This document shows positions 19,822 through 28,576 of a DNA stretch of 64,000 bases, one piece after another. The position numbers and the translations under genes are program-made. This stretch comes from Ilumatobacteraceae bacterium (GTDB taxonomy: Bacteria; Actinomycetota; Acidimicrobiia; Acidimicrobiales; Ilumatobacteraceae), in contig JAULYE010000010.1 in NCBI GenBank assembly GCA_032118015.1, forward strand, positions 5,113 through 69,112. The letters are read 5' to 3'. Below the pieces are notes generated by a model, which saw only the letters and a list, made by a program, of their open reading frames with translations, did not search any database and was not told the DNA's origin. Each line of letters starts with the position of its first letter. Positions within the stretch are counted from its first letter, which is position 1.

Positions 19822-19928
19822 GAGAATTCCCTAAAGTCGGACTGAATAGATACGTCACAGAGAGTAGATCAATCGGGTCTCAGTAGCGCAGTTTTTTAGG
19901 AACATTGTTGGTTTATGGTGAGGACATT

Positions 19929-20984
19929 GTGAGCGGAACAGCAGTTAAGCGCGTCCTATTTTTCGTTGTCCCCCTCCTCACGGTCGGTGGCACCCTTGGC
20001 GGGTCATCGGGGGTGAGCGCCGGAGTGTCCGAGTACGGCGTGGACTACTACATCTCACCACCACTCGTTCAGGGATCGTACGTGCCTGGGCAATCCGAGG
20101 ACTTCAACGATTTTGATACCGCGGCTACTTGTCCGCCGACGATTGCCAATGGAGAGATCGCCGTGACGGGTGCGTGCAAAACTCTGATAGCGGATGGATC
20201 CGGAGGAGCAACTGCGGAAGCAATAGATCCGACTCCCACAGTGGGCGCACCAGGTTCGGATTACGCAAGCACAGACTCTGGGGGAGAGATCACCTTCATC
20301 ATGCCCGAGGCTCAGCGTTATCTGGGTTTCTGGTGGAGCGCAGGTTCCGGCGGCAACATTGTTCGATTCTTTGACGGGGACAACGAGGTGCTCTCGTTGA
20401 ACACCGATGACCTAACGGCTCTTCTCGGGTTAGCGCCAACCAGTGTCGGTGACTTCGGATCGACAGGATTTATCGAGTCCCTGGATACGGCCTCGACCTA
20501 CGTCAGACATCACTATTTTGGTAATCCGCGCGGTGTGTTGGCCAGCGCGGCTGGCAGCCCACCGGTGATGACGGCAGCGCTGTGGGAGGGGAACACAACC
20601 AATTACGTGCCCGTCCCTGGCGGAACCATTTACTCGGAACCCTTCGTCTACCTTCATGTCCTCGGACAGGGAAACTTGAGCTTCGACCGGGTGACCTTTT
20701 CCGGCTTCGGCTTCGAATTCGACAACTTCGTGGTGTCGCCGTTCAGTCAAACACCACAGGGCTCATTGGTTCTTGCTGGTTCCGCCGCCGGAACGCCGCC
20801 GCCGGACTTCGAGCCGCCAGCTGGTGGCGGTCGCACACCGTCGATCGATCTCGGTCATTATCTCGAACGCTCTGAGTTGCCCAACACGGGCCGCCGCAAC
20901 ATGAGTCTCGAGTGGATGGCAGCAACGTTCGTTGCAATCGGAACGATTCTCTTGGGTGCACAGCGACGCATACGTCGCGTGTGA
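19929..20984 (+). CDS. LPNTG cell-wall-anchored surface protein, family B member 2
   Basis: GTG 19929 gives (M)SGTAVKRVLFFVVPLLTVGGTLGG, preceded by ggtgagga. The C-terminus is SELPNTGRRNMSLEWMAATFVAIGTILLGAQRRIRRV. It shares the GVDYYISPPLVQGSYV, QRYLGFWWSAGSGGN, HHYFGNPRG and FEFDNFVVSP blocks. Confidence 0.8.
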   Translation: MSGTAVKRVLFFVVPLLTVGGTLGGSSGVSAGVSEYGVDYYISPPLVQGSYVPGQSEDFNDFDTAATCPPTIANGEIAVTGACKTLIADGSGGATAEAIDPTPTVGAPGSDYASTDSGGEITFIMPEAQRYLGFWWSAGSGGNIVRFFDGDNEVLSLNTDDLTALLGLAPTSVGDFGSTGFIESLDTASTYVRHHYFGNPRGVLASAAGSPPVMTAALWEGNTTNYVPVPGGTIYSEPFVYLHVLGQGNLSFDRVTFSGFGFEFDNFVVSPFSQTPQGSLVLAGSAAGTPPPDFEPPAGGGRTPSIDLGHYLERSELPNTGRRNMSLEWMAATFVAIGTILLGAQRRIRRV

Positions 20985-21163
20985 AAGCTCTCGGTACATC
21001 GTTGACGTTCGCTGTTGTTTCTCGCATGTGACCGAAAGGACACCAGGAGTCGGCACCGAAAGGTCACCTGTTGTTCACTGTGCACCTACTGTCATGGCAT
21101 CGGCATTCGCCGATTCATGACACGACGTTTCGATCCCGAATCGTCCGTTCACAGGAGGAATCA

Positions 21164-21733
21164 ATGCGTAAGCGTTCAATATCCCTCGCCCTGCTTGCAG
21201 CAGGATCGTTGATCTTCACAGCGTGTGGAGAGGACCCGGCCAACACAGCGACCACCCAAGCCCCGGCTGAGGAAAATGGCGAAGCCGAAGCAGGGGGCGA
21301 CATCATTGCTGTCGCCACGGCTGCCGGATCTTTCAACACTCTTGCTGCGGCTCTCGAAGCGGCTGGTCTGATCGAAACCCTTCAGGGTGAAGGTCCATTC
21401 ACAGTGTTCGCACCGACAGATGAAGCGTTCGCTGCACTGCCTGAAGGTCTTCTCGATGCCCTGCTGCTCCCCGAAAATGTGGAGATTCTCACGGCCATCT
21501 TGCTGTTCCATGTGATCTCCGGATCTGAAGTCACTTCCGACATGGTGGCTGCTGGTGATGTCGAGATGGCAAGTGGTGCCATGGCAACGATCGTCGTCGA
21601 TGGCGAGACCATCACGATCGCCGGTGCGCCAATCACAGCGGTGGACGTTCAGGCGTCCAATGGCGTCATTCACGTCCTCAGCAGTGTCATGGTGCCAGCT
21701 GACGTCGACGTCGCAGCACTTCTTGCTGGCTGA
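21164..21733 (+). CDS. Fasciclin (FAS1) domain lipoprotein
   Basis: aggagg SD, then MRKRSISLALLAAGSLIFTACGEDP (lipobox). FAS1 motifs [17 protein letters not shown] and NGVIHVLSSVMVP. Confidence 0.9.
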   Translation: MRKRSISLALLAAGSLIFTACGEDPANTATTQAPAEENGEAEAGGDIIAVATAAGSFNTLAAALEAAGLIETLQGEGPFTVFAPTDEAFAALPEGLLDALLLPENVEILTAILLFHVISGSEVTSDMVAAGDVEMASGAMATIVVDGETITIAGAPITAVDVQASNGVIHVLSSVMVPADVDVAALLAG

Positions 21734-21799
21734 TTTCCTGACGCAGTCACCCAGTGCAATCTGATAGTTGGGGCGAGGTCTTCGGACTTCGCCCCAACT
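21711..21799. repeat. 89-bp direct repeat, copy 1 (last 23 nt of the fasciclin gene plus its terminator)
   Basis: tcgcagcacttcttgctggctgatttcctgacgcagtcac[c]cagtgcaatctgatagttggggcgaggtcttcggacttcgccccaact. It is repeated at 22492-22580 with a single mismatch. Confidence 0.95.
21766..21799 (+). terminator. Stem-loop terminator of the fasciclin gene (15-bp stem with one G.U pair, TTCG loop)
   Basis: agttggggcgaggtc-ttcg-gacttcgccccaact, located 33 nt after the stop codon. No U-tract, as is common in Actinobacteria. Confidence 0.7.
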
Positions 21800-21833: not shown

Positions 21834-22283
21834 TCAGGGGAGATTTTGCAAGTCGTCATGATCTTTGGGCCGTCCACTCGCTTGCTTGTTGACCTTGAGA
21901 TCGTTCAATGAAATAACGGGAACCAGTAATCCACTGATTATCCGAGATTCGGAACGTCCGTAACAAGCATCGAATGTGACTCCATCGATGTCCATGAGAA
22001 TCTCGATGCGAATTGGTGCTTCACCCATTCGAACGATGCGGTCAGGGTCTTCGAACAGTGGAGGAGTCAGATCTGGAGTGTCGAACCCAAATTCACGTAG
22101 ACACGCAACAATTCGTTCAGCGTTGGTGCGATTTCTTGCAACCCAGATGTCCAAATCTGCAGTGGCGCGCGGGTAGCCATGAAGTGCAACTGCAAACCCT
22201 CCGACGAGGAGATATTCAACGTTGTGGTCGTTGAGTAATTTCAAGAACTCGGAGAAGTCTTGAGGAAACTCGATCTTGTCCAT
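21834..22283 (-). CDS. Nucleotidyltransferase-fold protein (MNT/AbiEii-like; putative toxin-antitoxin or defence component)
   Basis: FSEFLKLLNDHNVEYLLVGGFAVALHGYPRATADLDIWV is the classic GG...HG..R.T.D.D minimal NTase motif. Confidence 0.7.
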   Translation of the reverse strand: MDKIEFPQDFSEFLKLLNDHNVEYLLVGGFAVALHGYPRATADLDIWVARNRTNAERIVACLREFGFDTPDLTPPLFEDPDRIVRMGEAPIRIEILMDIDGVTFDACYGRSESRIISGLLVPVISLNDLKVNKQASGRPKDHDDLQNLP

Positions 22284-22416
22284 AGTTCATCCTGACCAGT
22301 TCAAGAACGTGTTGAAGACGGGCTTCGGGGGCCTGAGTTGACCAGTACGCCTTATCCAATTCGGTGGCTTCTTGGTGAGTGGCCGAAATGTGCAGCGTTT
22401 TCTCCATCGAGCCCAA
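22216..22416 (-). CDS. Small partner protein of the NTase (66 aa)
   Basis: MGSMEKTLHISATHQEATELDKAYWSTQAPEARLQHVLELVR...RLLRVLEI. It lies immediately upstream of the NTase and overlaps it by 68 nt out of frame. The call is uncertain. Confidence 0.4.
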   Translation of the reverse strand: MGSMEKTLHISATHQEATELDKAYWSTQAPEARLQHVLELVRMNYGQDRVSSRLLRVLEITQRPQR

Positions 22417-22491: not shown

Positions 22492-22580
22492 TCGCAGCAC
22501 TTCTTGCTGGCTGATTTCCTGACGCAGTCACTCAGTGCAATCTGATAGTTGGGGCGAGGTCTTCGGACTTCGCCCCAACT
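22492..22580. repeat. 89-bp direct repeat, copy 2 (orphan fasciclin 3' end plus terminator hairpin at 22547-22580)
   Basis: Identical to 21711-21799 except for one c-to-t change. Confidence 0.95.
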
Positions 22581-22732
22581 ATCTCACCTTCGTTGCGGAG
22601 GCAGTACGCGAGATTCTCCGCCTATCATGAAAAAATGCAAAGACTGAAGAGTTTCATCGCCCCAGTCGTCGTTATCGCCGTCGCCACTGCCGTCTTCATA
22701 GCTAGTGCAGTTCGACTTTGACGTGAGTCGGT

Positions 22733-22957
22733 TTATTTCTTTTCGTCCGGCAAATTATCGATGCCATTACCGATTGCCATGAATGTTGGAGCCCAGAGCC
22801 CAACGAAAATTCCAAAGCGCTCTCCTGATGCTTGAACCTCGCCGTTATCTGTTCCGCCCTGAGTGAACCAGATGACGATGCTCGCAATAACCGACAGGAA
22901 TCCAAGCGCATAGGAAAGATTCGCGCTGTAGCCCCATGATTTCAATTTCCTCAACAT
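22733..22957 (-). CDS. Small two-TM membrane protein (74 aa)
   Basis: A strong aaggag SD lies 5 nt before ATG 22957. MLRKLKSWGYSANLSYALGFLSVIASIVIWF...FGIFVGLWAPTFMAIGNG. It is divergent from the GNAT-AAA gene. Confidence 0.6.
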   Translation of the reverse strand: MLRKLKSWGYSANLSYALGFLSVIASIVIWFTQGGTDNGEVQASGERFGIFVGLWAPTFMAIGNGIDNLPDEKK

Positions 22958-23161
22958 ACGTACTCCTTGTTGCAAATTGAAATGAGCTTTTGCCCACGTG
23001 CGAATTGTCCCACACAGTCAAAGAACCTCACGGGATGCTGGGCGGCGTCCCGGCACGTCCCATTCCTTTGCGTGACTCGATCATTGACAAAGGTTGGAGT
23101 CATCACCAGACTCGAGGCACATCAGAGGCGTCTCGGCCAAAAGGTCGGTAAGAATACAACT

Positions 23162-24430
23162 ATGAGCGTCGTCATTCGGGATCTGCTTCTCACAGACATC
23201 GGCCCTGCTGTGCGTCTCCTGGAGGAATGTCGAAATCTGGCTGATACGAAACCGGCAGATATCGCACAATTCGTGAATGACGTTTCCTCTGGCGCACCAG
23301 GAGTCGTCGCGGTTCTCGGTGAAAAGATCGTGGGAATCATCCAAGCTCGCACCGTCGCTGACGATGCCTGGATCAACGTTGTTGTTATCGATAGTTCCTG
23401 GCGTCATCAAGGACTGGGTTCCAAGATGCTGCAAAGGCTCGAAGAAAAGTTGATGCATCTGGGTGTACGGAAAATCTCTGCTTTGCTGTCGAATTCCCAA
23501 GCAGGAGAAACCGCTTTGGTGAATCGTGGTTTCACCTCCACTCACGATCTCGTGCTGTACGAGAAGTTGGAGCCGATTGCTCCGACTGCGATGCGTATCG
23601 TCGATCAATATGGCGGGGAGATTCTGCCGACAACGCTTTGGGACCGTGTTGCTGGAATGCATGAGGAAAAACGGGTCATTGATGGGCGTGTAGTGGCGCC
23701 CTTGGCCGATCCAACGACTGCTGAGAAAGTGGGAGTCAAGGCTCCAGCAACTGTCTTGCTTTTTGGCCCTCCGGGCACTGGCAAGACAACTTTTGCCAAA
23801 GCCATTGCGGGTCGTCTTGGGTGGCCATTTATTGAACTACTGCCGTCCAAATTGGAAAGCGGAAGTGACTCGATGTCGTCGGAACTTCGAACTGCCATCA
23901 GTGATCTTCTCCAGTTGGATCACGCGGTTGTCTTCATCGATGAATTCGATGAGATCGCCTCGGCCAGGGAACACAATCCAACAACAAAAGGGGTGGTGAA
24001 CGAATTATTGAAAATGATTCCTCTCTATCGATCCACCCCGGGACACTTGTTGGTCTGTGCCACGAATTTCGTAGGAGACATTGACTCGGCTGTGTTGCGT
24101 CCGGGCAGATTTGACTTGGTGATCCCGATCGGCCCGCCCGATCTCGTGGCGCGACGTGCATTGTGGAACGCTGCCCTTTCGTCGCTGGACCACCGTGGCG
24201 TCGAAATTGAAAAGCTCGCGCTTCAAACCGAGGGTTACACACCTGGTGATGTGGAATTGGCGGCCCAAAGGGCTGCAGCTGCTGCCTTTGACCGCATTCG
24301 AGAAGGTGCTGAGCCTCCGCATATTTCCGCAGACGATCTTGATGCGGCTATCGCCCGTACTCGAGCCTCGGTGACGAGTGAAATTCGCCAACGATTCAGC
24401 GAAGAGGCCGATCGATTCGCTCGGGTGTGA
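23162..24430 (+). CDS. GNAT acetyltransferase / AAA+ ATPase fusion protein
   Basis: Start at ATG 23162 (MSVVIRDLL). GNAT motif A is WRHQGLGSKMLQRLEEKL. The AAA+ part has Walker A LLFGPPGTGKTT, Walker B AVVFIDEFDE, NFVGDIDSAVLRPGRFD (second region of homology with Arg finger) and a C-terminal helical lid. Confidence 0.8.
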   Translation: MSVVIRDLLLTDIGPAVRLLEECRNLADTKPADIAQFVNDVSSGAPGVVAVLGEKIVGIIQARTVADDAWINVVVIDSSWRHQGLGSKMLQRLEEKLMHLGVRKISALLSNSQAGETALVNRGFTSTHDLVLYEKLEPIAPTAMRIVDQYGGEILPTTLWDRVAGMHEEKRVIDGRVVAPLADPTTAEKVGVKAPATVLLFGPPGTGKTTFAKAIAGRLGWPFIELLPSKLESGSDSMSSELRTAISDLLQLDHAVVFIDEFDEIASAREHNPTTKGVVNELLKMIPLYRSTPGHLLVCATNFVGDIDSAVLRPGRFDLVIPIGPPDLVARRALWNAALSSLDHRGVEIEKLALQTEGYTPGDVELAAQRAAAAAFDRIREGAEPPHISADDLDAAIARTRASVTSEIRQRFSEEADRFARV

Positions 24431-24495
24431 ATGTCTCAAGGGTTTGATCTCAGCGAGTTCCTCAGTCGTCGGACCGACCTCGAGTCCCGCGTCAC

Positions 24496-24837
24496 GGCGA
24501 GCCGGCCAACACGGCCACCACCGAAGTCACGATAGAAGACAGTGACTCCAGCGAGGAGTTGGGCGACATCGTTTCCGTCGCATCTGCTGCTGGCTCGTTC
24601 TCGACCTTGGCTGCGGCTCTCGAAGCTGCCGGTCTCATTGAGACCCTTCAAGGTGAAGGTCCTTTCACCGTGTTCGCACCCACGGATGAGGCATTCGCTG
24701 CCCTTCCCGATGGGTTGCTCGACGCCCTGCTCCTCCCGGAGAACGTTGAAGTTTTGAAGTCCATCTTGCTGTTCCACGTGATCAGCTCGGTCATGGTTCC
24801 GTCCGATGTGGATGTGGCTGCGCTGCTTGCTGGCTGA
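24496..24837 (+). pseudogene. Fasciclin paralog remnant (no signal peptide or lipobox; ~58-aa internal deletion)
   Basis: [11 protein letters not shown]...[53 protein letters not shown] aligns with 21164..21733. An in-frame TGA lies upstream at 24445. The sequence jumps from LLFHVIS directly to [16 protein letters not shown]. Confidence 0.7.
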
Positions 24838-24865
24838 TTCCAGACGAAAATCGATCAATTCGAAA

Positions 24866-24899
24866 AGTGGGGGTGAGGCTTGCGGGCTTCACCCCCACT
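24866..24899 (+). terminator. Terminator hairpin, variant B copy 1 (14-bp stem with one G.U pair)
   Basis: agtgggggtgaggc-ttgcgg-gcttcacccccact. It has the same architecture as the 21766 hairpin and is repeated at 26817-26850. Confidence 0.7.
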
Positions 24900-25745: not shown

Positions 25746-26699
25746 ATGAGTTTTCGTCTTCGTGCAGGTACTGCGGCATCCACGGTCGTGTTGGTGGCTG
25801 CCGCCGCTCTGGCACAGGCTGCCCCAGCTGGTGCCATCGGCGCGGTCTTCGGACTCGACTACTACATCAGCGCGCCATTGGTCCAAGGAACACACGTATC
25901 AGGCGGAGTTAAGGAAAATTTCAACTCCTTGGTATCGTGCAGCGGCTCGATCGGAACGGGCAGTGCAATTGCGGTTTCCGGAGATTGCGTGCTGGAGAGT
26001 TCTGCGAATCAATTCGGTGGGGCCGTAACGGACAGCGCGACCCCAACGGCTGGAGGCAGCGGTTCAGCTTTCCCAATTGCTGACAATGATCCAGGAACCA
26101 CCTTCACTCTTTCTGGACCGCAGTGTTATCTCGGCTTTTACTGGACTGCCGGCTCGGGTGGCAACACCGTTGAGTTCTTCAGTGACGGGGAACTGGTTCT
26201 CTCTTTCAACAGTGATCAAATTATTGCAATCCTCAATCCAAGTGAAGTAGCAACACTCGTGTCAGTAGGTGGCACGACGTATCAGAAGGCACTTTGGTAC
26301 GGCAATCCCCGCGGTCACTCGGATATCGATTCCAATGGAATACCCGACGGAACCTCAACCCTCAACGATGGCGAGCCTTATGTCTACCTCAACGTTTATG
26401 GTAAGGGTGGTTTGACGTTCAACTCGGTTCGGTTCTCTGGCCCCAACTTCGAATTCGACAATCTTGCGTTCTCTTCTTCGTGCGAGACGCCCCCGAGTTC
26501 GAGTGTCTATCTTGGCTACGTTGGAGAAGGCGAACCTGAGTCGCCGAACTTGCGGATTAATCCAGACTACCTCACACGAACGACCGAGGAACTTCCGAAC
26601 ACCGGGGCCTCATCAAATACTCTTAACTGGGTCGCTTTGGCCCTCGCCGGAGGAGGCATTTCTCTCCTAAGGATTCGACGAAGACTTGCCGAGTACTGA
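25746..26699 (+). CDS. LPNTG cell-wall-anchored surface protein, family B member 3
   Basis: Signal peptide MSFRLRAGTAASTVVLVAAAALAQAAPAGA. Blocks: GLDYYISAPLVQGTHV, CYLGFYWTAGSGGN, WYGNPRG, EPYVYLN, FEFDNLAFS. The C-terminus is EELPNTGASSNTLNWVALALAGGGISLLRIRRRL. Confidence 0.8.
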   Translation: MSFRLRAGTAASTVVLVAAAALAQAAPAGAIGAVFGLDYYISAPLVQGTHVSGGVKENFNSLVSCSGSIGTGSAIAVSGDCVLESSANQFGGAVTDSATPTAGGSGSAFPIADNDPGTTFTLSGPQCYLGFYWTAGSGGNTVEFFSDGELVLSFNSDQIIAILNPSEVATLVSVGGTTYQKALWYGNPRGHSDIDSNGIPDGTSTLNDGEPYVYLNVYGKGGLTFNSVRFSGPNFEFDNLAFSSSCETPPSSSVYLGYVGEGEPESPNLRINPDYLTRTTEELPNTGASSNTLNWVALALAGGGISLLRIRRRLAEY

Positions 26700-26710
26700 T
26701 CTTTAGAACT

Positions 26711-26788
26711 TCCAACGGCGTGATCCACGTGATCAGCTCGGTCATGGTTCCGTCTGATGTGGATGTGGCTGCTCTTCTTGCTGGCTGA
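26711..26788 (+). pseudogene. Orphan fasciclin 3' fragment ([25 protein letters not shown]-stop)
   Basis: Matches the last 25 codons of the fasciclin genes. It is followed by hairpin B copy 2. Confidence 0.8.
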
Positions 26789-26816
26789 TTCCAGAAGAAG
26801 ATCGAAATCCTCTAAA

Positions 26817-26850
26817 AGTGGGGGTGAGGCTTGCGGGCTTCACCCCCACT
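26817..26850 (+). terminator. Terminator hairpin, variant B copy 2
   Basis: Identical to 24866-24899. Confidence 0.7.
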
Positions 26851-26895: not shown

Positions 26896-27387
26896 ATGAG
26901 CGTCGTGATTCGAGATTTACTGTCGACCGATATCAGCCCCGCTGTGCGGCTGTTGGAAGAGTGTCGATCCCTACCTGATACGAAACCGGCCGATTTCGCC
27001 CAATTCGTGAGCGATGTGTCATCTGGTGCTCCAGGTGTCGTCGCGGTCGACGCGGCCTAGCGCCACAAAGGAATCGGCTCGGCGATGCTGCAGCGTCTGG
27101 AAGAAAAGTTGATGCATCTGGGTGTACGGAAAATCTCTGCTTTGCTGTCGAATTCCCAAGCAGGAGAAACCGCTTTGGTGAATCGTGGTTTCACCTCCAC
27201 TCACGATCTCGTGCTGTACGAGAAGTTCGAGCCCATTGCTCCGACTGCGATGCGTATCGTCGATCAATATGGTGGCGAGATTCTGTCGGCCGATCTGTGG
27301 GATCGGGTAGCTGGCATGCACGAAGAAAAGAGAATCATCGACGGGCGTGTCGTAGCGCCACTCGCCGACCCGAACAAAGCAGAATAA
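26896..27387 (+). pseudogene. Decayed GNAT/linker half of a second GNAT-AAA+ gene
   Basis: MSVVIRDLLSTDISPAVRLLEEC... parallels copy 1. It has a ~26-codon deletion, an in-frame TAG (27058-27060) before RHKGIGSAMLQRLEEKL, and an in-frame TAA (27385-27387) where copy 1 has Lys. Confidence 0.75.
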
Positions 27388-27393
27388 GTCGGT

Positions 27394-28089
27394 GTGAAGG
27401 CCCCGGCGACGGTGCTGCTCTTTGGCCCTCCAGGAGCCGGGAAGACGACCTTCGCCAAAGCAATAGCCGGCCGTCTGGGATGGCCGTTCATCGAGTTGCT
27501 GCCGTCCAAATTGGAGAGCGGAAGTGATTCGATGTCTTCGGAGTTGCGCACGGCAATGAACGACTTGTTGCAACTGGATCGTGCTGTCGTCTTCATCGAC
27601 GAGTTCGACGAAATCGCATCGGCCAGAGAACGCAACCCCACGACCAAAGGAGTGGTCAACGAATTGCTGAAGATGATTCCGGCGTATCGATCTGCGCCGG
27701 GACATCTCTTGGTGTGCGCCACGAATTTCGTCGGCGAAATCGACTCGGCTGTGTTGCGTCCGGGCAGATTTGACTTGGTGATTCCGATCGGTCCGCCCGA
27801 TCTGACAGCCCGGATTGCTCTGTGGGAAGCAGCGCTCTCACGCCTCGATCAACGCGGAGTCGACATCGACAATCTGGCGAGGAACACCGAGGGTTACACA
27901 CCTGGTGACGTCGAGCTGGCTGCCCAACGAGCAGCAGCTGCCGCATTCGATCGGATTCGCGAAGGGGCAGGACCCTCTTACGTCTCAGCTGACGACCTCG
28001 ACAGGGCGATCGGGCGCACCCGGGCATCGGTCACCAGTGACATTCGCCAGCGGTTCGCCGACGAAGCAGATCGCTTCGCCCGCGTCTAG
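27394..28089 (+). CDS. AAA+ ATPase module of the second copy (possibly still expressed from GTG 27394)
   Basis: Intact Walker A (GPPGAGKTT), Walker B (VVFIDEFDE) and RPGRFD. Most differences from copy 1 appear to be synonymous (by eye). Confidence 0.55.
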   Translation: MKAPATVLLFGPPGAGKTTFAKAIAGRLGWPFIELLPSKLESGSDSMSSELRTAMNDLLQLDRAVVFIDEFDEIASARERNPTTKGVVNELLKMIPAYRSAPGHLLVCATNFVGEIDSAVLRPGRFDLVIPIGPPDLTARIALWEAALSRLDQRGVDIDNLARNTEGYTPGDVELAAQRAAAAAFDRIREGAGPSYVSADDLDRAIGRTRASVTSDIRQRFADEADRFARV

Positions 28090-28193: not shown

Positions 28194-28266
28194 GCCTCCG
28201 TAGCTCAGTGGATAGAGCAACGGTTTCCTAAACCGCAGGTCGCAAGTTCGATTCTTGCCGGGGGCG
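28194..28266 (+). tRNA. tRNA-Arg (anticodon CCU)
   Basis: GCCTCCG-TA-GCTC-AGTGGATA-GAGC-A-ACGGT-TTCCTAA-ACCGC-AGGTC-GCAAG-TTCGATT-CTTGC-CGGGGGC-G. Cloverleaf with T33, anticodon CCT and A37. CCA is not encoded. Confidence 0.85.
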
Positions 28267-28576
28267 CCGCAGAACACCTTGATACCGCAGGTTTTCTTGG
28301 ATGCGCCATCTCGTGCTGACATCAGTTGTCTGCCGAGTTCTGTATCCATTTCTAGATGAGCCGTGGATGATCATCTACCTCACGTCATGGAGGCAGCTCA
28401 CCTTCTCGCGCCAGCAAACTTCATGCATGTGATTTGAAATTGCGAACGACCACACCGGAATGATTGGTGACATCTGTATGTGGTATTGAAGAGTTCCGAC
28501 GGTAGACCAGTAAGTGGCAACTGTTAGGTGGGTGGTTCTGGCGGATCACGCAGTATTGAGGTGGGAGCACCCTTTC

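What the first reader, a model, noticed from the sequence alone, without database searches (positions are those of the whole stretch)
22733..24430. GNAT acetyltransferase fused to a classical AAA+ ATPase, divergently paired with a 2-TM micro-protein
One polypeptide (23162-24430) combines an N-terminal GNAT domain (motif A RHQGLGSKML), a ~70-aa linker and a CDC48/FtsH-type AAA+ module. The AAA+ module has Walker A and B, RPGRFD, and a helical lid. I do not recognise this fusion as a characterised system. It sits on an AT-rich cassette, has a second decaying copy 3.7 kb away, and faces a small membrane protein with a strong SD (22733-22957). Context and architecture would fit a stress or phage-defence effector, or a substrate-acetylating unfoldase. 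This is speculation.
Basis: inference. Interest (0 to 1): 0.6.

Follow-up and report, generated by a model that had tools for sequence, protein, structure and literature searches.

The report
Acetyltransferase fused to AAA ring ATPase
The gene is a real fusion of an acetyl-CoA-type acetyltransferase domain to a Cdc48-like ATP-driven ring motor; it belongs to an unstudied, patchily distributed family of stand-alone genes found across Actinobacteria, and nothing ties it to phage defence or firmly to the small membrane protein next to it.

Summary
Window 23162-24430 (+) encodes a 422-aa protein with a complete YpeA-like GNAT domain (residues 1-135, motif A RHQGLG), a short disordered linker of about 20 aa (not about 70), and one classical AAA module of the Cdc48/PAN/FtsH branch. 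Walker A and B, sensor 1 and both SRH arginines are intact.

It is not a one-off. It belongs to a roughly 420-aa family that PGAP already names [quoted passage not shown]. The family occurs in about 5% of Actinomycetota species, on chromosomes and large plasmids, and I found no paper on it.

Eighty-four loci share no conserved neighbour and show no enrichment for defence genes. The IetA and TRIP13 hits are generic AAA similarity.

The 2-TM micro-protein is real and has a strong SD. In relatives it lies downstream on the same strand, and it often occurs without the fusion. Both genes are cargo of a hypervariable fasciclin...tRNA-Arg(CCU) locus.

The "decaying copy" is an old paralogue (78% nt identity, dS above 1.4, dN/dS 0.05) that was broken recently.

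My best reading is an ATP-driven protein remodeller whose substrate-facing N-domain binds acetyl-CoA and probably acetylates. The mechanism is inferred, not shown.

The parts
23162..24430 (+). GNAT-AAA fusion gene, 422 aa (P0001)
   Evidence: full-length homologues of 422 aa with the same start
23162..23566 (+). YpeA-like GNAT domain, residues 1-135; motif A R81-H-Q-G84-L-G86 at 23402-23419
   Evidence: A profile of the N-domains matches PDB 2pdo (YpeA) at E 3.8e-18 over positions 4-133. Pfam Acetyltransf_1/7/10. Motif A is canonical in 78 of 85 members.
23567..23626 (+). Flexible linker, residues about 136-155
   Evidence: AF2 pLDDT is below 50 for residues 133-139, and this is the lowest 10-residue block of the model. 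The length of this stretch varies in alignment A1.
23627..24430 (+). Single classical AAA module with helical lid and C-terminal helix (residues 156-422). Walker A 23765-23788; pore loop 1 P-S-K-L-E-S 23843-23860; Walker B 23930-23947; SRH arginines R313/R316 24098-24109; invariant F412 and penultimate R421.
22733..22957 (-). 74-aa small membrane protein with two hydrophobic stretches, divergent from the fusion gene here
22963..22968 (-). Shine-Dalgarno AAGGAG, 5 nt before the micro-protein ATG
26896..28089 (+). Second GNAT-AAA copy, a pseudogene: deletion of about 25 codons in the GNAT core, TAG at the Trp80 codon, TAA before the AAA part. The AAA part 27394-28089 is still an open frame.
28194..28268 (+). 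tRNA-Arg(CCU), the anchor of the variable locus
   Evidence: The same tRNA lies next to the fusion gene in G003 and in L016, and next to the micro gene in L108/L109.
22492..22583 (+). Left boundary repeat of the cassette: fasciclin-gene 3' end plus a GC-rich hairpin; 99% identical to 21711-21799
24499..24899 (+). Right boundary: internally deleted fasciclin remnant plus hairpin (24866-24899)

Best explanation
The gene encodes a stand-alone member of an uncharacterised, Actinomycetota-wide family. A YpeA-like, acetyl-CoA-binding GNAT domain takes the place that substrate- or adaptor-binding N-domains hold in Cdc48, PAN and FtsH. A short flexible linker joins it to a single, hydrolysis-competent classical AAA module.

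The most likely working model is this. The protein assembles into a ring, presumably a hexamer, with the GNAT domains forming a crown over the pore entrance. ATP hydrolysis grips or partly unfolds a protein substrate. The GNAT crown recognises that substrate and probably acetylates it, or its newly exposed N-terminus or lysines.

It is an accessory function that is transferred laterally and often lost. It is not housekeeping and not a recognisable phage-defence system.

What is shown: the domain identities, the conservation of motifs, the distribution, the lack of a partner gene, and purifying selection. What is inferred: ring assembly, a protein substrate, and the coupling of acetylation to remodelling.

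The neighbouring 2-TM micro-protein is best read as fellow cargo of the same hypervariable fasciclin...tRNA-Arg locus, not as an obligate partner.
For: Domains.

Family-wide invariance in 85 of 85 members: Walker A, Walker B D260/E261, sensor-1 N302, R313, R316, F412 and R421. These point to a working ATPase with inter-subunit arginine fingers, and so to an oligomeric ring. Motif A [RQ]xxGx[GA] is kept in 78 of 85.

The AAA part aligns end to end with VAT/p97 D2, including the lead-in and the C-terminal helix.

dN/dS is 0.05 between the two window copies.

Distribution: 15 of 297 high-quality Actinomycetota genomes and 12 of 204 genera; 4 of 25 species of the window's own genus; 22 actinobacterial plasmid records with at least 80% coverage. 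In the tree, Acidimicrobiia separate from Actinomycetes, but Streptomyces falls in three clades and Tsukamurella sits among Micrococcales. That is old vertical inheritance plus lateral transfer.

No conserved neighbour: the largest neighbour cluster covers 9 of 84 loci, and the nearest-neighbour genes differ in strand and size from locus to locus.
Against: No biochemical or genetic data exist for any member, and YpeA itself has no known substrate.

Pore loop 1 is P-S-[RK]-L-A without an aromatic residue (L231 in 84 of 85). This resembles the KLAG loop of p97 D1 (my knowledge), which is the weaker, non-threading ring, so full unfolding is uncertain.

The Tyr in helix alpha4 that serves as general acid in many GNATs has no counterpart in the family profile; residue 119 is always L or F.

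The GNAT half is much less conserved than the AAA half: only R81 is invariant in alignment A2. Seven of 85 members have lost motif A.

The relative orientation of the two domains is not well defined in the model (pTM 0.63).
Confidence: 0.45

Rival explanations
1. Acetyl-CoA sensor. The GNAT domain binds acetyl-CoA or CoA only as a ligand and gates the AAA motor according to metabolic state. No acetyl group is transferred.
For: The alpha4 tyrosine is missing from the family profile. The GNAT half evolves much faster than the AAA half. Seven of 85 members lack motif A yet keep a perfect AAA module. One plasmid copy sits directly after aceA-aceB, the glyoxylate shunt, which is acetyl-CoA metabolism.
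Against: Motif A and the full GNAT fold are kept in 92% of members. Many active GNATs work without that tyrosine (established knowledge of the superfamily). The aceAB context is a single case.
Confidence: 0.2
2. Phage-defence or abortive-infection effector: a single-gene or IetA-like system that senses infection and inactivates a target by acetylation or unfolding.
For: PADLOC IetA models hit at 8e-29 and TRIP13 at 1e-13. The gene is accessory and patchy, sits in a low-GC variable locus next to a tRNA, has an NTase-type pair nearby, and occurs on plasmids.
Against: The hits cover only the AAA module and are weaker than the generic Cdc48 (1.6e-37) and PAN hits. IteA scores 90 bits against a cutoff of 510. 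No IetS-like protease and no HORMA or CD-NTase partner is present. No PADLOC model matches the GNAT half. Among 136 nearest neighbours there are only single PADLOC hits, several of them generic. The class-level split in the tree indicates an old cellular gene.
Confidence: 0.08
3. Two-gene module with the 2-TM micro-protein. The small membrane protein tethers or regulates the GNAT-AAA ring at the membrane, by analogy with FtsH.
For: Within the genus the micro gene is found in exactly the 4 genomes that carry the fusion, and only as a weak hit (E 2.4e-4) in 1 of 21 others. It lies 59-141 nt downstream on the same strand in L009, L011 and L022, and a 34%-identical relative does so in L019/L020. 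This holds even where the fusion proteins are only 54% identical.
Against: All micro homologues sampled on 4 long contigs (58-91% identical) lack the fusion within 4 kb. G028 has the micro gene but no fusion. In G003 the two genes are on different contigs. None of about 75 family loci outside Ilumatobacteraceae has a comparable small membrane ORF downstream. L108/L109 show the same fasciclin...tRNA-Arg locus carrying the micro gene without the fusion, so a shared locus explains the co-occurrence. In the window the pair is inverted relative to the other loci.
Confidence: 0.12
4. Small-molecule acetyltransferase (antibiotic, polyamine or metabolite) in which the AAA module serves only as an oligomerisation or regulatory scaffold.
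For: The GNAT profile also matches aminoglycoside, phosphinothricin and diamine acetyltransferases at E 1e-4 to 1e-6. The family occurs on plasmids of soil actinobacteria. Neighbours are often transporters or MarR/TetR regulators.
Against: Complete conservation of every ATP-hydrolysis and arginine-finger residue, together with dN/dS of 0.02 in the AAA part, argues for an active motor and against a scaffold. The best GNAT matches are YpeA, followed by N-terminal and ribosomal-protein acetyltransferases.
Confidence: 0.1

Closest known systems
Cdc48/p97/VAT (D2 ring) and the proteasomal ATPase PAN
   Same: Classical AAA clade. There is an end-to-end alignment of residues 157-420 with VAT D2 (E about 1e-56 per domain). 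Foldseek's top hits are p97, with TM about 0.55 over the AAA part. The family shares Walker A/B, sensor 1, the SRH with two arginines, AAA_lid_3, and a substrate-handling N-domain placed before the ring.
   Different: This protein has one AAA module, not two. It has no Cdc48 double-psi barrel N-domain and no coiled-coil/OB ring. It scores 129 bits against the TIGR01243 cutoff of 803 and 117 against 500 for PAN. Pore loop 1 carries Leu instead of an aromatic residue. The C-terminus is A-R-hydrophobic, not HbYX.
YpeA (E. coli/Shigella mini-GNAT; PDB 2pdo, 4qus, 4qvt)
   Same: Full-length match of the N-domain, positions 4-133 against 4-134, at E 3.8e-18. The R-G-R-G-I-A/G motif A is the same. 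NCBIfam PRK03624 is the best GNAT model.
   Different: YpeA is a free-standing protein of about 141 aa with no known substrate. The Tyr in its alpha4 helix has no counterpart here.
TmcA/NAT10 (ATP-dependent RNA cytidine acetyltransferase) and Pat/PatZ-type protein acetyltransferases
   Same: They set the precedent for a GNAT fused to a nucleotide-using domain, where the second domain presents or regulates the macromolecular substrate (my knowledge of these enzymes; not tested here).
   Different: Their partner domains are a helicase-type P-loop (TmcA) or an acyl-CoA-synthetase-like domain (Pat), not a classical AAA ring. No sequence relationship was detected.
IetA/IteA (AAA ATPase of the IetAS anti-phage system) and the CBASS-associated TRIP13
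   Same: Single-ring AAA ATPases. PADLOC IetA models match residues 187-375 at 8e-29.
   Different: NCBIfam IteA scores 90 bits against a cutoff of 510. No IetS protease or HORMA/CD-NTase gene is nearby. IetA and TRIP13 have no GNAT domain.

Membership tests
GNAT superfamily (Pfam clan Acetyltrans; PF00583) | Score above the Pfam gathering cutoff and a full alpha/beta GNAT fold | tested here: met
   40.8 bits against a cutoff of 20.7. The profile matches YpeA over its whole length at E 3.8e-18. AF2 gives beta1-alpha1-alpha2-beta2-beta3-beta4-alpha3-beta5-alpha4 with pLDDT of about 77-94.
GNAT superfamily | Acetyl-CoA pyrophosphate-binding motif A, Q/R-x-x-G-x-G/A | tested here: met
   R81-H-Q-G84-L-G86 in the window protein; canonical in 78 of 85 family members.
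GNAT superfamily | Actual acetyl-CoA binding and acetyl transfer | not testable with these tools
   This needs biochemistry. The alpha4 Tyr of YpeA/RimI is absent, which neither proves nor excludes activity.
Classical AAA (PF00004 plus AAA_lid_3) | Walker A, Walker B DE, sensor-1 Asn, second region of homology with two Arg, helical lid | tested here: met
   97.3 bits against 21.2; lid 27.6 against 27.2. All of these residues are invariant in 85 of 85 members.
Classical AAA | Aromatic-hydrophobic-Gly pore loop 1 of threading unfoldases | tested here: not met
   The aligned position reads K/R-L-A/E-x, with Leu in 84 of 85 members and no aromatic residue.
CDC48 family (TIGR01243) | N-domain plus two tandem AAA modules; score at or above 802 bits | tested here: not met
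   129 bits; a single AAA module.
FtsH (TIGR01241) | N-terminal TM helices plus a C-terminal M41 zinc protease | tested here: not met
   110 bits against a cutoff of 600. There is no TM segment and no protease domain. The true FtsH is elsewhere in the genome (C119).
Proteasome-activating nucleotidase (PAN/ARC) | Coiled-coil and OB N-domains; C-terminal HbYX tail | tested here: not met
   117 bits against a cutoff of 500. The N-domain is a GNAT. The tail is A-R-[LVFI], with an invariant penultimate Arg and no Tyr.
IetAS / IteA anti-phage ATPase | Equivalog-level score and an adjacent IetS serine protease | tested here: not met
   90.5 bits against a cutoff of 510. No protease neighbour is present here or in the 84 related loci.
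PGAP architecture 'bifunctional GNAT family N-acetyltransferase/ATP-binding protein' | About 420 aa, N-terminal GNAT plus C-terminal AAA, full-length alignment | tested here: met
   Homologues carrying this name align over 99-100% of the query. 85 members of 415-441 aa were collected.

The most novel reading that the evidence does not exclude
The family is a new enzyme class, an 'acetylating unfoldase'. A hexameric AAA motor feeds a gripped polypeptide past six GNAT active sites, so that acetylation of otherwise buried lysines or of an N-terminus depends on ATP. This would be a bacterial writer counterpart to the eukaryotic AAA-bromodomain readers ATAD2/Yta7. The invariant C-terminal A-R-hydrophobic tail would be a docking signal for a still unknown partner.
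Probability: 0.2. Interest if true: 0.75.

Novelty: new variant of a known kind. Interest (0 to 1): 0.4.

Why it matters
In AAA+ machines the N-domain normally only recruits substrates or adaptors. Here a catalytic acyltransferase sits in that position in an otherwise canonical Cdc48-like motor. Purifying selection on it is strong (dN/dS 0.05), and it occurs in roughly one actinobacterial species in twenty, including Streptomyces, Rhodococcus and Arthrobacter strains that can be cultured and manipulated.

If acetylation is coupled to ATP-driven remodelling, that would be a new way of writing protein acetylation in bacteria. It would also give the orphan YpeA-type GNATs a first functional context. 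If the domain is only a ligand sensor, the protein would link acetyl-CoA status to protein remodelling.

The practical result of this check is narrower. The family is real and already named generically in RefSeq. It has no partner gene and no defence signature.

Tried and rejected
1. Defence-system membership. PADLOC and NCBIfam scans of the protein and its three neighbours gave only generic AAA similarity. PADLOC on 136 nearest neighbours of family members gave single hits.

2. Search for a conserved operon partner. All-against-all clustering of ORFs within 5 kb of 84 loci, a listing of the nearest neighbours and a Pfam census found none.

3. A generic small membrane ORF downstream of family members outside Ilumatobacteraceae. 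None was found.

4. The micro-protein as an obligate partner. Rejected from contexts on long contigs.

5. AAA-only relatives (269-363 aa) as a clue from alternative N-domains. Pfam showed only AAA and a marginal DUF4032 hit; these are probably fragments.

6. Phage-borne copies. None: phage hits cover at most 62% of the query and are FtsH-like or generic AAA.

7. Literature. No paper has 'N-terminal GNAT' together with AAA and ATPase. The GNAT/AAA+/fusion search returned unrelated papers.

9. The full-length fold search found no PDB entry that combines both domains. Alignments of 250-266 columns had rmsd 2.5-4.1; the longer ones had rmsd 6-17.
Full report
**1. What is there**

The frame 23162-24430 (+) gives a 422-aa protein, P0001. 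The longer frame that starts at TTG 22967 is not used, because thousands of homologues start at the same MSVVIRD-type N-terminus and are 422 aa long.

Pfam finds GNAT models on residues about 42-127, the classical AAA domain on 198-323 and AAA_lid_3 on 347-387. All score above their curated cutoffs.

A profile of the N-terminal 145 residues of 15 family members matches the small E. coli/Shigella acetyltransferase YpeA (PDB 2pdo) over its whole length, at E 3.8e-18. The next matches are other mini-GNATs, N-terminal acetyltransferases and RimI.

A profile of the whole family matches the AAA rings of VAT, p97 and Cdc48, with D2 scoring best (about 1e-56 per domain). The D2 alignment starts at residue 157, so the 'W-D-x-x-x-G-M...K...P...G' lead-in belongs to the AAA module. 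The real linker is therefore about 20 residues, not about 70.

In the AlphaFold model (mean pLDDT 87, pTM 0.63) only residues 133-139 fall below pLDDT 50. Foldseek returns p97/Cdc48/Rpt chains.

**2. The family**

The protein has thousands of metagenomic homologues of the same length and architecture. One source name is 'bifunctional GNAT family N-acetyltransferase/ATP-binding protein [Acidimicrobiia]'.

A library-wide HMMER search shows some 20 full-length clusters at the 50% level, down to 32% identity.

In species-representative genomes the best 80 loci are all Actinomycetota. They include Ilumatobacteraceae, Acidimicrobiaceae, Streptomyces, Kitasatospora, Embleya, Nonomuraea, Arthrobacter, Pseudarthrobacter, Cryobacterium, Agromyces, Microbacterium, Leucobacter, Tsukamurella, Mycobacteriaceae, Nanopelagicales and Miltoncostaeaceae.

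Prevalence figures:
- 15 of 297 high-quality genomes sampled evenly over the phylum, and 12 of 204 genera.
- Only 4 of 25 species in the window's own genus.
- Twenty-two large actinobacterial plasmids carry a full-length copy, including Rhodococcus opacus B4 pROB01, Rhodococcus sp. DK17, Streptomyces linear plasmids, Saccharopolyspora and Paenarthrobacter. RefSeq annotates them with the name above or simply as GNAT.
- No phage record holds the fusion.

A maximum-likelihood tree separates Acidimicrobiia from Actinomycetes with full support. Within Actinomycetes, however, Streptomyces appears in three clades, Tsukamurella sits among Micrococcales, and one Arthrobacter strain has two distant copies. 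So this is an old actinobacterial gene that is frequently lost and sometimes moved laterally. It is neither housekeeping nor purely mobile.

**3. Conservation**

In 85 members the following are invariant: Walker A GPPGTGK, Walker B D260-E261, A-T-N302, D308, R313, G315-R316-F317, F412 and the penultimate R421. The protein always ends A/G-R-hydrophobic. The acetyl-CoA motif A [RQ]xxGx[GA] is intact in 78 of 85.

Two departures from the textbook matter for mechanism.
- Pore loop 1 reads P-S-[RK]-L-A with Leu in 84 of 85 members. It has no aromatic residue and resembles the K-L-A-G of p97 D1 (my knowledge).
- The alpha4 tyrosine of YpeA/RimI has no counterpart in the family.

Outside R81, the GNAT half is far more variable than the AAA half.

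**4. Context**

No gene is conserved next to the family.
- Clustering all ORFs within 5 kb of 84 loci gives a largest cluster of 9 loci, which is lineage-specific synteny.
- Neighbours differ in strand, distance and size.
- The 136 nearest neighbours carry 135 different Pfam families, the commonest in five proteins.
- PADLOC hits among them are single and partly generic.

For the protein itself, PADLOC gives IetA (8e-29) and TRIP13, but only over the AAA part and more weakly than the Cdc48 and PAN models. NCBIfam IteA scores 90 bits against a cutoff of 510. The defence reading therefore has no positive support beyond the gene being accessory.

**5. The micro-protein**

The 74-aa ORF 22733-22957 (-) has AAGGAG 5 nt before its ATG and two hydrophobic stretches. 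It belongs to a family of 637 clusters, all 'hypothetical' and without a Pfam domain. These come from freshwater Actinobacteria and also some Chloroflexota MAGs.

For a functional link:
- Within the genus its strong homologues occur in exactly the four genomes that have the fusion.
- In G010, G016 and L022 it lies 59-141 nt downstream of the fusion on the same strand, and a 34%-identical relative does so in L019/L020.

Against a functional link:
- In G003 the two genes are on different contigs, and the micro gene there sits between tyrosine-recombinase fragments.
- G028 has the micro gene without the fusion.
- Micro homologues sampled on four long metagenome contigs all lack the fusion within 4 kb.
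- No family locus outside Ilumatobacteraceae has a comparable downstream ORF.
- L108/L109 show fasciclin - superoxide dismutase - micro gene - tRNA-Arg(CCU), the same locus as in the window but without the fusion.

The fusion gene itself is next to this tRNA in G003 and in L016, in different orientations. The simplest reading is that both genes are alternative cargo of one hypervariable locus. The divergent arrangement in the window is a local rearrangement. I keep a functional pairing at about 12%.

**6. The local mosaic and the second copy**

The fusion/micro cassette (22581-24498) is bounded by copies of the 3' end of a fasciclin gene plus a GC-rich hairpin. Four such copies lie at 21656-21799, 22492-22583, 24760-24899 and 26711-26850. 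GC falls from about 0.60 to 0.51-0.55 across 21-31 kb.

Copy 2 (26896-28089) abuts tRNA-Arg. It has lost about 25 codons spanning GNAT strand beta4 up to motif A, and it has a TAG and a TAA.

The two copies are only 78% identical in DNA. Synonymous sites are saturated (dS 1.5 overall, above 3 in the AAA part), and dN/dS is 0.05, or 0.02 in the AAA part. They are thus old paralogues or separately acquired alleles that both evolved under strong constraint, and copy 2 was disrupted only recently.

**7. Mechanism**

Shown: a complete, probably acetyl-CoA-binding GNAT; a complete ATPase with trans-acting arginines, which implies an oligomeric ring; a flexible tether between them; strong purifying selection; and no partner gene.

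Inferred: a hexamer with a crown of GNAT domains where Cdc48, PAN and FtsH place their substrate-binding N-domains. The GNAT would then act on, or select, the macromolecule that the ring grips.

I put about 45% on this 'remodeller with an acetylating or acetyl-CoA-binding N-domain acting on proteins'. Within that, true coupling of acetylation to unfolding, which is the novel case, gets about 20%.

The rivals are a pure acetyl-CoA sensor (20%), a module with the micro-protein (12%), a small-molecule acetyltransferase (10%) and phage defence (8%). The non-aromatic pore loop and the missing tyrosine are the main reasons for caution.

**8. Novelty and verdict**

The architecture is already present, generically named, in RefSeq. 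It is common enough that it is not a discovery of this window. I found no paper or solved structure that describes it.

It is a new variant of a known kind: a classical AAA ATPase with an enzyme as N-domain. Interest is moderate at 0.4. The protein is experimentally tractable in Rhodococcus, Streptomyces and Arthrobacter, but it has no genomic clue to its substrate.

Noticed in passing
window 21656-21799, 22492-22583, 24760-24899, 26711-26850: Four copies of the 3' end of a fasciclin gene plus a GC-rich hairpin (AGTTGGGGCGAGG...CCCCAACT or its variant) delimit cassettes between the intact fasciclin gene (21071-21733) and tRNA-Arg. One pair of copies is 99% identical over 89 nt.
   Followed up: partly
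window 21834-22416 (-): A 149-aa nucleotidyltransferase (DUF2204 / Aminoglyc_resit-like) and an overlapping 66-aa upstream ORF sit exactly between the two 99%-identical 89-nt repeats. This looks like an inserted toxin-antitoxin-type pair. There is no PADLOC or NCBIfam hit.
   Followed up: partly
L108 1699-5878 and L109 862-5041: Related freshwater contigs carry fasciclin - Fe/Mn superoxide dismutase - micro-protein - about 1.5 kb without a called gene - tRNA-Arg(CCU, 94% identical to the window's). This shows that the fasciclin...tRNA-Arg interval is a hypervariable locus with changing cargo.
   Followed up: partly
L102 (G003:C9) 641-2328: In G003 the micro-protein gene lies between two partial tyrosine-recombinase C-terminal fragments (...HDLRKFNATV..GVDIKTAQVRLGH...). 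That points to integrase-mediated shuffling of this small gene.
   Followed up: no
window 27394-28089 (+): The AAA-only remnant of copy 2 is an intact 231-aa frame that starts with GTG and keeps all ATPase motifs (Walker A reads GPPGAGKT). dN/dS against copy 1 is 0.02. It might still be expressed as a GNAT-less subunit.
   Followed up: partly
window 19905-20984 and 25746-26699 (+): Two paralogous secreted proteins with an LPNTG sortase signal flank the mosaic. Neither has a Pfam family for its main domain; only a weak Gram_pos_anchor hit was found for one.
   Followed up: no
L117 (Paenarthrobacter ureafaciens plasmid pADNL1) 3443-8299: On this conjugative plasmid the GNAT-AAA gene directly follows aceA-aceB (isocitrate lyase and malate synthase) on the same strand. 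This is a single case that links the family to acetyl-CoA metabolism.
   Followed up: no
P0372, P0383 (micro-protein homologues): Homologues of the 74-aa membrane protein at 58-61% identity are annotated in Chloroflexota MAGs from lakes. That suggests exchange of this small gene between phyla in freshwater communities.
   Followed up: no
L019/L020 9363-10485: Downstream of the fusion gene here are two small hydrophobic ORFs (64 aa, distantly like the micro-protein, and 52 aa) followed by two DoxX-family membrane proteins. Upstream is an alternative oxidase.
   Followed up: no
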